Origin: Chrysomallon squamiferum | Lineage: Eukaryota > Animalia > Mollusca | Direction of reading: 5' to 3' | DNA length: 64,000 nucleotides | Assembly (NCBI GenBank): GCA_012295275.1 | Contig: CM022666.1 | Span: forward strand, 6,200,001 to 6,264,000 | Shown: positions 34,411-50,212 of the stretch, in pieces | Layout: every line of letters starts with the position of its first letter | How positions within the stretch are numbered: position 1 is the stretch's first letter | Position numbers and translations under genes: made by a program | Notes under the pieces: model-generated | Databases searched by the model: none | Seen by the model: the letters and a program-made list of their open reading frames with translations, nothing else | Told to the model about the DNA's origin: nothing

Positions 34411-36308
34411 ATGTCAACCGGAATGTTCTCAGATTGTCACGGACCTGGCATTTCGCTGGATGAAGAAAAAGCTACGTGGAGGGAGACCAACACGTCACGT
34501 AAACCTATGATTTTTGGTTTTATCAGCTGTATTATTGTGTGGACATACGTACACACATACACACAAACACACATTGATACATGAACACATACATACATAC
34601 GCACACACTAACAAACATTCATACATACATACATTGATACATGCATACAAACAAGCGTACACACAAGATTATAAGCAGACAGACAGAGAGACAGACGCAT
34701 AAATAAACTAATCACTTTCAAGTAACAACTACGTAGTGATCTTTATACTACATTTATTTTCCCTGATCTTTTCACTACTTAGACGTGAAACGCAAACACA
34801 CACACACACACACACACTCACACACACACACAAACACACAGGCATACACACCTGCATGTAAATGTATCTATTTATCTATTTCTGAGCATTTTACTGATAT
34901 TTTGTAAGAAGCATTGCCATCTTACTTTTGCTGCACGCGGAATCCACTGAGAAGAGATGAAACTTTGCTGGTGCAAGTAAAGAAGGTTAAAGATATGAAT
35001 ACAAATCTGAAAATCTATCAGTCAGCTTATACGTAAGAAGAATAAATTATATTTTTAACACATTTCTGTATACTTCTGTGTCATTATTGACTAATCATAC
35101 TCAACAACAGAGTATAAATTGTCCGTTTGTATAAATTATTTTCTTTATATGTTCTCCACGACACAAAAGACAACATCATTATTAGAACTACAGAGAGAGA
35201 GAGAGAGAGAGAGAGAGAGAGAGAGAGAGAGAGAGAGAGAGAGAGAGAGAGAGAGAGAGAGAGAGAGAGAGAGAGAGAGAGAGAGAGAGAGAGAGAGAGA
35301 GAGAGAGAGAGAGAGAGAGAGAGAGAGAGAGAGCATACAAACTGCATTAATATCATACTTGTGATATTGTTCATAATAAATATTTATATTTCAGACCAGA
35401 AGATCTGAAACTAAGTGAGGAAATATTTGATGATTCCTCGCTGAATAATCCTATTGACCTTTCAAACATCGAAACAATCCGAATTCTGATCACTGGAACG
35501 GGAAAAATAGCTTACATAAAAAACGATGGAAAACATACCTACACGGAGGTATAGCTTAGATTCTCCTCTTCAAAAAATCAACCTATTTGAGTTATTTTGT
35601 ATAGTCTGTTCTTAATTTTTGTTTTTGCCAGTTTCATTTTGTAATATGAAATATTACAAGCTATTTGTTTAACATGTTATGTAACTGTGGTGCATTAACA
35701 TTAATATATATATTAGAAATCATATTTAAAGAGTAAAATATTGTAAATCTCTCTCTCTCTCTCTCTCTCTCTCTCTCTCTCTCTCTCTCTCTCTCTCTCT
35801 CTCTCTCTCTCTCTCTCTCTCTCTCTCTCTCTCTCTCTCTCTCTCTCTCTCTCTCTCTCTCTGAAAGCATGTTCTTAAATCTGTTACAGATTACACTGAT
35901 GCCCTGGCCTCTGATGTTAACGATTCAGAAATAACAGACTTACCAGTAAGAGGTGACTCAGCAAAATCTGCGAAGAAGGCGTTTGAAGGAGACAAACGAA
36001 ATCTGTCTGGTGTTTGTCGAGATGAAAGCGATGGACTGTCGCCGTTTGAGAGGTACATCCGGCCAAAGTACACAGAGTTTGTTGAAAAAATGGAGCCAGA
36101 TTGCGTCCTTGATTATCTTTTTCAAGATAATATCGTCACCCGTGAACAGATGGAAGACATTAGAAATGAACCTAGCCAGGCAGGTAGAAACAGGAAAATG
36201 CTCAGGGTTATGAACCAATGTCCCAATGGTGTGGAGAAATTCAAACAAGCTTTAATAAATGCCAGTCAGAAACATCTGTCTGAGCTCATAATCTGTGACA
36301 AAAACTAA
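34411..36308 (+). CDS. NHR-CARD family copy 2 (exon C 3'-truncated, CARD exon intact)
   Basis: Exons A 34411-34498, B 34909-35032 (ALPSYFCCTRNPLRRDETLLVQVKKV...), C 35395-35548 and D/CARD 35890-36308. A-B-C are phase-consistent. C lacks about 98 bp present in copy 5 and now ends in phase 0, while D starts in phase 1. An A-to-D splice is in frame. Confidence 0.7.
35193..35333. repeat. (GA)n microsatellite (others at about 12848, 22438, 28950, 31735, 35748, 43744, 44240, 49210, 51750)
   Basis: Direct inspection. Confidence 0.97.
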
Positions 36309-37037
36309 ATAATGCAGACTGCGAGTTTCTACAAGGAAAATAATAATGTAGAATGTGAACGTCTGTTTTATCAAGAATAATGTACACTGAATTTCTGTGA
36401 TAAAATATGAATAAAGTAGATAGTGACTATCTTTTATTAAATTATGAATAATAAAGACTGATTTTCTCTTATAAAATGTGATTAATGTAGACTGTGAGTG
36501 GTTATATTTTATTAAATCTATCATTGTATTGTTTAAATAATTTTAAATAGTTGATAATGAATATCTATTATATAGTAGAATGATAATTTGTGCTCTAAAT
36601 ACTGTAGCCTATGAATGTCTTTGCTATTCCTATCTGAACAATGCAGGCTGATTGTCGTGACTAGAAAGTGGAAACGTCAATATCTGTAACATTTGAATAA
36701 TGATGACTGTTAAAGTCTGATTTTGTCGTATTTGAATAACATTGATACATGCATACAAACAAGCGTACACACAAGATTATAAGCAGACAGACAGAGAGAC
36801 AGACGCATAAATATACTAATCACATTCAAGTAACAACTACGTAGTTATCGTTATACTCCATTTATTTTCCCTGATCTTTTCACTACTTAGACGTGAAACA
36901 CACACAGACACACACAGACAGGCATATACATCTGTATGTGTCTTCTTCTTCTGAGCATTTTTTTTTATCTTTTGTAAGAAGCACTGGCATCTCAACTTTG
37001 CTGCACGCGGAATCCCTTGAGAAGAGATGAAACTTTG

Positions 37038-48491: not shown

Positions 48492-50212
48492 ATGTTCTCA
48501 GATTGTCACGGACCTGACACTTCGCTGGATGAAGAAAAAGCTACGTGGAGGGAGACCAACACGTCACGTAAACATATGAAATTGGTTTTACAGCTGTATT
48601 ATTGTGTGGACATACGTACACACATACATACAAACACACATTGATACATGAACACATACATAGATACGCACACACTAACATACATTCATACATACATAAA
48701 TTGATACATACATTCAAACAAGCGTACACACAGTCCTAAAGCAGACAGACAGAAAACACACGCATCAATATACTAATCACTTTCAAGTAACAGCTACGTA
48801 CTTATCGTTACACTACATTTATTTTCCGTAATCTTTTCACTACTGAATCACAGACACACAGGCACACAAAGACAGGCATACCCATCTGCATGTGTCTTCT
48901 TCTTCTGAGCATTTAATTTATGTTTTGCTGCACGCGGAATCCCTTGAGAAGAGATGAAACTTTGCGTGTGCAAGTAAAGAAGGTTAAAGATATGGATACA
49001 AATCTGAAAATCTACCAGTCAGCTTATTCGTAAGAACAATAAATTATATTTTTAACACATTTCTGTATCCTTCTGTGTCATCATTTTATTTGTGTGGGTT
49101 TTGTTTTACTAATCTTCGTCAATAAAAATGTATTATCTCTTCCTTTGTATAAATTATTTCCTTCATACGTTGCCCATCAGACAAAAGACAAAATCATTAT
49201 TAGTACTACAGAGAGAGAGAGAGAGAGAGAGAGAGAGAGAGAGAGAGAGAGAGAGAGAGAGAGAGAGAGAGCATACAACGTGCATTAATATCATACTTGT
49301 CCTATTGTTCATAGTAATTATTTCTATTTCAGACCACAAGATCTTAAACTAAGTGAGGAAAAATTTGATGATTCCTCGCTCAGTAATCCTATTGTCTTTT
49401 CAAACACCGGAGAAATCCGAATTGTGATGACTGCAACGAGAAAAATAGCTTACATCATGAACGATGGAGACGGTATCTACACGGAGGACAAGGAAACTGA
49501 CCTGTCTAAACCGGTTTATTTTTATTTCAAACTTCACGGAGTAGAAATTAAACTGAAGTCTATCAGTGATAAATGTGCGTATGAGTATAGCTTGGATTCT
49601 CCTCTGCGAAAAATCAACCTATTTGAATTACTTTTTATAGTCAGTTTTTAATTTTTGTTTTTGCCTGTTTCATTTTGTAATATGAAACATTACAAGATAT
49701 TTGTTTAACAGGTTGTATTACTGTGATTGTTTACAGAAATCATATTTAAACAGTAAAATATCGTAAATCTCTCTATTGTAAATCTGTTACAGTTTACACT
49801 GATGCCAAGGCCTGTCATGTTAGGGATTCAGAAATGTCAGCCTTACCAGAAAGGGCTGACTCCGCAAAACCTGCGAACAATGTGGTTGAACAAGAGAAAC
49901 GAAATCTGCCTGACGTTTGTCCAGCTGAAAGCGAAAAACAGTCGCAGTTTGAGAAGTACAACCGGCCAAAGTGCACAGAATTTGTTGATACAATGGAGCC
50001 AGATCGCGTCCTTGATTATCTTTATCAAGCGAGGGTCGTTAACAGTGAACAGAAAGAAGACATTACAAGTGAACGTTGCCGGTTAAATAAAAACAGGAAA
50101 ATCCATAGACATTATAGCACGCAATACCAAAAGTGTTCAGAAATTCAAAGAAGCGTTAAAACATGCCAGTGAGAAACATTTGTCTGAATTGATAGTCTGT
50201 TCCAAGAACTGA
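48492..50212 (+). pseudogene. NHR-CARD family copy 5; the only copy with full-length exon C, otherwise disrupted
   Basis: Exon A remnant 48492-48567 (acceptor and first ATG deleted). Exon B acceptor deleted at about 48925 (donor at 49030). Exon C 49333-49574 is complete (...TDLSKPVYFYFKLHGVEIKL..., phase 2 to phase 1). CARD exon 49793-50212 has a +1 frameshift at about 50105 (atccatagac versus atcctagac). Confidence 0.8.

What the first reader, a model, noticed from the sequence alone, without database searches (positions are those of the whole stretch)
34411..50212. Cryptic NHR(Neuralized)-like + CARD gene family in a tandem array
Seen: three small exons upstream of the CARD exon splice with consistent phases (A ends 1, B runs 1 to 2, full C runs 2 to 1, CARD starts 1). 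A composite of copy 4 A+B, copy 5 C and a CARD exon gives 873 nt / 290 aa: MSSGMFSDCHGPGISLDEEKATWRETNTSQALPSHFCCTRNPLRRDETLLVQVKKV...GEIRIVMTATRKIAYIMNDG...TDLSKPVYFYFKLHGVEIKL-linker-CARD. Known: the NHR domain has FHxxHGxxIxL...A.R at its start, VFSxRPLxxxE followed by a beta strand, and VDxxxPLWxxxDxYG at its end. All three landmarks appear here in order. Canonical Neuralized proteins pair NHR with RING or SOCS-box domains, not CARD. Inference: a lineage-specific sensor or adaptor that couples a peptide-binding beta-sandwich to death-fold signalling, expanded in tandem.
Basis: partly seen in the sequence, partly recalled or inferred. Interest (0 to 1): 0.85.

Follow-up and report, generated by a model that had tools for sequence, protein, structure and literature searches.

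The report
Fast-evolving Neuralized-repeat–CARD gene array
This is a tandem array of spliced animal genes that end in a fast-evolving cell-death recruitment (CARD) domain; their front exons likely form a Neuralized-type binding domain, so the family would supply both sensor-adaptors and CARD-only decoys for innate defence, although no copy in this stretch is a complete two-domain gene.

Summary
Five copies of an A-B-C-D exon unit lie in the window (one at 1.8 kb, outside the finding). Splice phases fit and the composite gives 873 nt/290 aa. Exon D is a CARD (Pfam, fold). RNA contigs from one study show every junction (A>B, B>C, full C>D), though never on one contig, plus an in-frame A>D skip.

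The NHR call is likely but not formally shown. A language-model search puts exon C with SPRY/Neuralized clusters (0.92/0.91), four recalled landmarks occur in order over 151 aa, and exon B is under purifying selection (omega 0.23). Pfam, sequence and single-exon fold searches gave nothing.

New here: the linker+CARD exon shows dN/dS of 2.2-2.6 (p 0.002-0.007; off-frame control about 1.05). No window copy encodes the full protein: copies 2 and 4 frameshift before the CARD, copy 5 is broken, and copy 1 can give an intact 163-aa CARD-only protein.

Best reading: a birth-and-death innate-immunity locus with NHR-CARD adaptors and CARD-only decoys. SPRY-like plus death-fold pairing and NHR-caspases are already described; NHR+CARD itself was not found in my paper searches. 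New variant of a known kind.

The parts
1821..1908 (+). Copy 1 exon A (start codon, first NHR-like landmark)
   Evidence: 97-98% identical to copies 2 and 4
2309..2370 (+). Copy 1 exon B stump (3' half, donor and all of exon C lost)
2438..2841 (+). Copy 1 exon D, linker + CARD, open to the stop; A>D splicing gives a 163-aa CARD-only protein
   Evidence: Pfam CARD 9.7e-16; frame; an A>D joint with this type of D start in one contig of run X3
34411..34498 (+). Copy 2 exon A
34909..35032 (+). Copy 2 exon B (second landmark)
   Evidence: omega 0.23 across copies
35395..35548 (+). Copy 2 short exon C (98-nt deletion removed the 3' third and the natural donor; new donor is phase 0)
35890..36308 (+). 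Copy 2 exon D, linker + CARD, open
   Evidence: Pfam CARD 1e-12
36979..37040 (+). Copy 3 exon B stump (no exon A, no exon C)
37124..37939 (+). Copy 3 doubled exon D: two linker+CARD units fused head to tail, the first frameshifted near 37401
   Evidence: Pfam CARD 2.2e-10 for the second unit; mosaic ancestry
42335..42422 (+). Copy 4 exon A coding part (acceptor-like site 7 nt upstream of the ATG)
   Evidence: RNA contig ends at 42422 and continues into exon B letters
43461..43584 (+). Copy 4 exon B
   Evidence: B>C joints GT..AG in RNA
43885..44038 (+). Copy 4 short exon C (same deletion as copy 2; A-B-C-D stops after 136 aa, before the CARD)
   Evidence: short C>D joint in run X2
44422..44840 (+). 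Copy 4 exon D: about 50-aa low-confidence linker + six-helix CARD
   Evidence: Pfam 6.4e-12; model pLDDT 82-92 over residues 61-130; Foldseek to Apaf-1 CARD, rmsd 1.5 over 81 columns
48492..48567 (+). Copy 5 exon A remnant (upstream acceptor and first ATG deleted; second ATG kept)
48924..49029 (+). Copy 5 exon B remnant (acceptor deleted)
   Evidence: the same deletion is in a contig of run X2 (record 9)
49333..49574 (+). Copy 5 full exon C, the only complete one in the window (third and fourth landmarks)
   Evidence: Atlas SPRY 0.92 / Neuralized 0.91; full C>D joints in runs X1 and X4
49793..50211 (+). Copy 5 exon D, frameshifted by one extra base near 50105 that 4 of 4 RNA runs lack

Best explanation
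The array is a birth-and-death family of spliced CARD genes under diversifying selection, whose full-length form likely joins a diverged Neuralized-repeat (NHR, SPRY-clan) binding domain to the CARD and would act as an innate-defence adaptor, while CARD-only forms would act as decoys. Shown: exon structure, splicing, the CARD, dN/dS above 1 on linker+CARD, and loss or skipping of the front exons in several copies. Inferred: the roughly 150-aa front domain binds a protein ligand (pathogen-derived or host), ligand-driven clustering exposes the CARD at the end of a flexible linker, and the CARD nucleates or joins a CARD assembly with an initiator caspase or adaptor. CARD-only products (copy 1; A>D skips of copies 2 and 4) would compete for the same CARD surface, as primate CARD16/17/18 do for caspase-1. 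The intact two-domain gene is inferred to lie in another paralog or haplotype.
For: CARD: Pfam above cut-off in 5 of 5 D exons; six-helix model matching Apaf-1/caspase-9 CARDs, Foldseek probability 1.00, rmsd 1.5-1.6. Splicing: A>B (X4), B>C (X1, X4), full C>D (X1, X4), A>D (X3). The full-C contigs differ from copy 5 (5 letters in 177 in X1, 10 in 232 in X2) and one joins a copy-2/4-type D, so other complete-C alleles or paralogs are transcribed. Front domain: Atlas top rows SPRY 0.92 and Neuralized 0.91 (88% of 93 members carry PF07177), 10 of 10 best family hits in one family or clan, recognition 2410; 151 aa against about 160 for NHR (PMC11251625); four recalled landmarks in order, 0 of 200,000 shuffles with two of the three reader landmarks; three-chain fold of the exon peptides 0.48 against best control 0.02, weak support. 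Selection: D omega 2.2-2.4, p 0.002-0.005 over three trees and two frequency models; 2.56-2.62 without the broken or mosaic copies, 1.04-1.09 off-frame; B omega 0.23, p 0.008. Precedent: PMC8195603, PMC11251625, PMC11630849.
Against: No window copy encodes NHR+CARD and no single contig spans A to D. No Pfam, PDB-sequence or protein-database relative of the front exons; exon B gave no usable Atlas hit; exon C alone folded at pLDDT 48 with no fold match. Shuffled proteins reach Atlas 0.9 in 4-10 of 100 cases and SPRY ranked marginally above Neuralized. The landmark patterns are recalled and were loosened after seeing the sequence. RNA evidence is contigs from one study, 1-2 contigs per joint, and includes out-of-frame joints (B>D, short C>D). 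The selection test rests on six paralogous exons with recombination. No ligand, partner, induction or tissue data.
Confidence: 0.55

Rival explanations
1. The front domain is a SPRY/B30.2-type sandwich, not an NHR, so the gene is one more SPRY + death-fold protein with the same working logic but less novelty.
For: Atlas rank 1 and 19 of 30 hits are SPRY clusters; NHR and SPRY folds are alike (PMC2923778).
Against: The four recalled landmarks are NHR-type and occur in order at NHR-like spacing over 151 aa; the Neuralized cluster scores within 0.01 of the top; the SPRY rows are 66-89 aa fungal-dominated clusters.
Confidence: 0.14
2. The working products are CARD-only decoys; the NHR-like exons are a decaying relic and the full C>D transcripts come from broken copies like copy 5.
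For: 0 of 5 window copies are intact for NHR+CARD, while A>D gives open 163-168 aa frames in three copies; exon C omega 1.9, not different from 1; copy 5's loss of the B acceptor is real in RNA.
Against: Exon B shows purifying selection; full C is spliced to two different D types and carries alleles absent from copy 5; an in-frame A>B joint is seen.
Confidence: 0.16
3. The protein is a developmental or ubiquitin-pathway adaptor, binding Notch-ligand-type motifs through the NHR, with no role in defence.
For: Founding NHR proteins act in Notch signalling (PMC11251625 passage; established knowledge).
Against: No RING or SOCS box in the last exon; tandem turnover, mosaic copies and omega above 2 fit a conflict gene better than a developmental regulator.
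Confidence: 0.07
4. Exons A-C encode an unrelated lineage-specific beta domain and the NHR likeness is chance.
For: All profile, sequence and single-exon fold searches were blank.
Against: Atlas clan agreement, ordered landmarks and the three-chain pass point the same way.
Confidence: 0.08

Closest known systems
Neuralized/NEURL proteins (NHR + RING; NHR + SOCS box) and fish NHRE3 (NHR + HECT)
   Same: Likely N-terminal NHR module of about 150-160 aa; some members act in antiviral signalling (NEURL3, NHRE3: PMC12166272, PMC13623101, passages).
   Different: No ubiquitin-ligase domain; the C-terminus is a CARD; the front domain is too diverged for Pfam on single exons; tandem array with broken copies.
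Anthozoan NHR-caspases (Nematostella NVE5282 clade)
   Same: NHR placed on a cell-death module; NVE5282 is the caspase most induced by dsRNA (PMC11251625, passages).
   Different: There NHR replaces the prodomain of a protease; here it is joined to a CARD with no protease, so it would have to recruit a partner in trans.
SPRY-like + death-fold proteins (pyrin and others; PMC8195603 Fig. 2J text)
   Same: Concanavalin-fold binding domain coupled to Death, Pyrin or CARD domains in eukaryotic immunity (passage).
   Different: Minimal two-domain form with the binding domain first and the CARD last, and no B-box or coiled coil. The figure itself could not be seen, so an NHR+CARD drawing there is not excluded.
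Invertebrate NHR-bearing TIR/ROC-COR/Death proteins (Aplysia; oyster and centipede)
   Same: NHR used inside innate-immune signalling architectures of invertebrates (PMC9334734 legend; PMC5094078 passage).
   Different: Those are large multidomain proteins; this is a 290-aa two-domain adaptor.
Primate CARD-only proteins CARD16/17/18
   Same: CARD-only products born by tandem duplication and domain loss, with gene conversion and pseudogenes in the locus (PMC11630849, passages).
   Different: The parent here is not a caspase; no orthology; inhibition is untested.

Membership tests
CARD domain (PF00619) | Profile score above the curated cut-off | tested here: met
   28.6-58 bits against cut-off 23.9 in 5 of 5 D exons
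CARD domain (PF00619) | Six-helix death fold | tested here: met
   Six helices at residues 51-130; best natural matches Apaf-1, CARD8, caspase-9 CARDs, probability 1.00, E 0.004-0.014, none under 0.001
NHR / Neuralized domain (PF07177) | Profile match to PF07177 | tested here: inconclusive
   Only single exons of 29-80 aa could be scanned; 0 of 4 hit. Atlas cluster with 88% PF07177 at 0.91 for exon C
NHR / Neuralized domain (PF07177) | Module of about 160 residues | tested here: met
   A+B+full C = 151 aa; size from PMC11251625
NHR / Neuralized domain (PF07177) | Conserved landmarks in order (F-x3-HG start, P-L-x3-E strand, G-x-G-x-h-x-Y, D-x3-P-h-aromatic end); patterns recalled, not from a call | tested here: met
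   All four at residues 6-16, 39-51, 105-114, 127-140; in six frames of the window they hit only these exons. Patterns were loosened post hoc
NHR / Neuralized domain (PF07177) | SPRY-like beta-sandwich fold | tested here: inconclusive
   Exon C alone pLDDT 48, no match; three exon peptides as chains 0.48 vs control 0.02, weak, no fold name given
NHR / Neuralized domain (PF07177) | Peptide-binding pocket for NxxN-type motifs (recalled) | not testable with these tools
   No NHR sequence or structure could be obtained; paper searches for the pocket residues were blank or uninformative
Neuralized/NEURL E3 ligases | C-terminal RING or SOCS box | tested here: not met
   Last coding exon holds only CARD families and ends in a stop
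B30.2/SPRY proteins | Profile match to SPRY (PF00622) | tested here: inconclusive
   No Pfam hit on single exons; Atlas SPRY clusters 0.91-0.92
CARD-only proteins (CARD16/17/18 type) | CARD as the only domain | tested here: met
   Copy 1 A>D frame of 163 aa; one RNA contig with an A>D joint
CARD-only proteins (CARD16/17/18 type) | Derived from caspase-1 by duplication | tested here: not met
   Copies derive from the A-B-C-D unit; nearest solved CARD by sequence is Apaf-1 at E 0.007
CARD-only proteins (CARD16/17/18 type) | Competitive inhibition of a CARD partner | not testable with these tools
   Needs binding and caspase assays

The most novel reading that the evidence does not exclude
A polymorphic invertebrate sensor family in which an NHR sandwich recognises pathogen proteins and fires a CARD filament directly, a two-domain inflammasome-like receptor without any NACHT or helicase, whose CARD is in an arms race with pathogen antagonists and is tuned by CARD-only decoys spun off again and again from the same array.
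Probability: 0.22. Interest if true: 0.82.

Novelty: new variant of a known kind. Interest (0 to 1): 0.57.

Why it matters
NHR domains are known from Notch-pathway ligases, but scattered reports place them on caspases, TIR/ROC-COR proteins and antiviral ligases. A minimal NHR-CARD gene would make the idea that NHR is an invertebrate immune recognition module directly testable: one binding domain, one output domain. The selection signal sits on the linker and CARD, the output side, which suggests pathogen antagonism of CARD assembly or partner co-evolution. The repeated birth of CARD-only forms would be an independent parallel to the primate CASP1/CARD16-18 locus. The front exons have no detectable relative in the protein libraries searched, so such genes are probably missed or annotated only as CARD proteins.

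Full report
Observation. The window is AT-rich, microsatellite-rich DNA with spliceosomal introns; the CARD genes and a multi-exon amine oxidase point to an animal, but the lineage was not established. No whole genome is held. Self-comparison finds five copies of one unit: copy 1 at 1821-2841, copy 2 at 34411-36308, copy 3 at 36979-37939, copy 4 at 42335-44840 and copy 5 at 48492-50211.

State of the copies. None encodes that protein. Copies 2 and 4 share a 98-nt deletion, flanked by a GAG microhomology, that removed the end of exon C and its donor; the new donor is phase 0, so A-B-C-D stops at 136 aa, before the CARD. Copy 5 has the only full exon C but has lost the first ATG and the acceptors of A and B, and its D carries one extra base near 50105. 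Copies 1 and 3 have lost half of B and all of C; copy 3 also lacks A and has a doubled D. Because A ends and D starts in phase 1, skipping gives open CARD-only frames of 163 aa (copy 1) and 168 aa (copies 2, 4).

Expression. Of 23 runs listed, four RNA runs of one study were laid on copy 5 at 80% likeness. Eight of 15 joints match exon boundaries: A>B (X4), B>C (two rows; X1, X4), full C>D (two rows; X1 with GT..AG, X4 onto a copy-2/4-type D), A>D (X3, in frame), B>D (X4, out of frame) and short C>D (X2, out of frame). The other seven are in the CA-rich intron, an unspliced paralog intron, or divergent stretches inside D. Each joint rests on one or two contigs and no contig spans A to D. The extra base in copy 5 D is missing in 4 of 4 runs, including a contig otherwise identical over 50016-50267, so it is an assembly error or a private allele. 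Full-C contigs differ from copy 5 by 5-10 letters, and at five of seven well-supported sites carry the copy-4 base, so other complete-C alleles or paralogs are transcribed. A second lay, upstream of copy 4, showed the A>B contig again and no joint into A; run X23 reads through the A donor by 28 letters unspliced. Whether the joined forms exist as DNA was not tested over the other introns.

The CARD. Pfam CARD passes its cut-off in 5 of 5 D exons. The model has a low-confidence 50-residue linker and six helices; its best natural matches are Apaf-1, CARD8 and caspase-9 CARDs at about 20% identity, which names the fold but no ortholog or partner.

The front domain. A joined protein could not be sent to profile or fold tools, and no natural full-length relative was found, so the tests are indirect. 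For: the Atlas places exon C with SPRY (0.92) and Neuralized (0.91) clusters, 10 of the 10 best family hits in one family or clan; shuffled proteins reach 0.9 in 4-10 of 100 cases, and all-ten agreement also occurs in a third of shuffles. A+B+C is 151 aa and holds four recalled NHR landmarks in order; in 200,000 shuffles none held two of the three reader landmarks, and across six frames of the window the patterns hit only these exons, but they were loosened after seeing the sequence. Folded as three chains, the exon peptides scored 0.48 against a best control of 0.02, runs agreeing in at least 69% of contacts with partner pLDDT at least 57. That mark was reached by 51 of 78 solved complexes and 2 of 108 mismatched pairs, but at 0.60 or under by only 5 of the 78 and by all 4 mismatches that passed; the job is unlike the calibration, and a pass may reflect likeness to solved structures. 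Against: Pfam, PDB sequence, exon B Atlas and single-exon fold searches were blank. I put a SPRY/NHR-clan fold at about 0.9 and NHR proper at about 0.75.

Selection. On six D units a one-ratio codon model gives omega 2.2-2.4 (p 0.002-0.005; three trees, two frequency models), with linker and CARD each at 2.2-2.4 (p 0.03-0.04). It holds for the four frame-intact units (2.56, p 0.004) and for copies 1, 4, 5 alone (2.62, p 0.007); the same alignment read off-frame gives 1.09 and 1.04. Between the two D types synonymous divergence (0.07-0.10) matches introns and UTRs (0.06-0.18, eleven comparisons) while non-synonymous divergence is about 0.25. Exon B is constrained (0.23, p 0.008, five copies, few changes); A and C are uninformative. 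Recombination among copies and the small sample limit these values.

Mechanism. Shown: spliced CARD genes, turnover of copies, diversifying selection on the output exon, CARD-only frames. Inferred: the front domain binds a protein ligand as SPRY/NHR sandwiches do; clustering lets the CARD recruit a CARD-bearing caspase or adaptor; CARD-only forms compete. I give this whole model 0.55. Rivals are a SPRY-type front domain (0.14), a decoy-only locus with a relic front domain (0.16), a developmental adaptor (0.07) and an unrelated fold (0.08).

Comparison with what is known. I read passages only, no whole papers. PMC8195603 states that SPRY-like domains (SPRY, PRY, Neuralized repeat) are coupled to Death, Pyrin and CARD domains in eukaryotes; its figure is not held, and 12 of 13 supplements searched had no 'neuraliz'. 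PMC11251625 describes anthozoan NHR-caspases, one strongly dsRNA-induced. PMC9334734 and PMC5094078 show NHR in TIR/ROC-COR/Death proteins of Aplysia, oyster and centipede. PMC12166272 and PMC13623101 cover antiviral NHR ligases, PMC11630849 the primate CARD-only genes, PMC2923778 the NHR-SPRY fold likeness; PMC8998645 had no NHR mention. Searches pairing Neuralized/NHR with CARD or death domains (listings seen) turned up no two-domain NHR+CARD protein, but the library holds only open-licence papers and no domain-architecture database was available. The gene is a CARD-family member, not a Neuralized ligase (no RING or SOCS box), a probable NHR-domain protein, and works like, but is not, CARD16/17/18 in its short forms.

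Verdict. Real, expressed and fast-evolving; a new variant of the known 'SPRY-like sensor plus death fold' kind.

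Noticed in passing
window 51900-58704 (-) and about 31610-31720 (+): A multi-exon flavin amine oxidase (MAO-type) gene ends tail to tail with the array (Pfam Amino_oxidase in 3 of 5 exon frames scanned). An inverted, about 82% identical copy of its last exon sits at the other end of copies 2-5, so the block is bracketed by inverted repeats.
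   Followed up: partly
window about 9000-30600: A second tandem array: a signal-peptide-like exon in five copies (11595, 18256, 21199, 23660, 27782) and a cysteine-rich exon (14299-14439; relatives at 30390, weaker at 15939, 18550, 23954) suggest small secreted cysteine-rich peptides. No Pfam hit; the cysteine spacing recalls a single VWC-like module (recalled, untested).
   Followed up: partly
window 37124-37939: Copy 3 has two CARD units fused in one exon; only a two-base gap near 37401 keeps it from being a CARD-CARD frame. The second unit is copy-1/5-like in its 5' two thirds and copy-4-like in its 3' third.
   Followed up: partly
window 43456-43463: Exon B has a tandem AG-AAG acceptor; the one RNA contig across A>B uses the site 3 nt downstream, still in frame.
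   Followed up: yes
window 39590-42450: Run X23 (library not on record, behaves like DNA) covers 28 of 30 bins with many variant contigs, hinting at more paralogs of this unit than the window shows; not a copy number.
   Followed up: no
window 39600-40000 (also about 3485 and 46158): A GC-richer island repeated upstream of the copies, with low RNA cover in X4 and a kB-like GGGTTTCC at 39989 (motif recalled); a possible promoter.
   Followed up: no
window 6139-6338: A 200-base assembly gap lies between copy 1 and the rest of the array; order across it is not assured.
   Followed up: no
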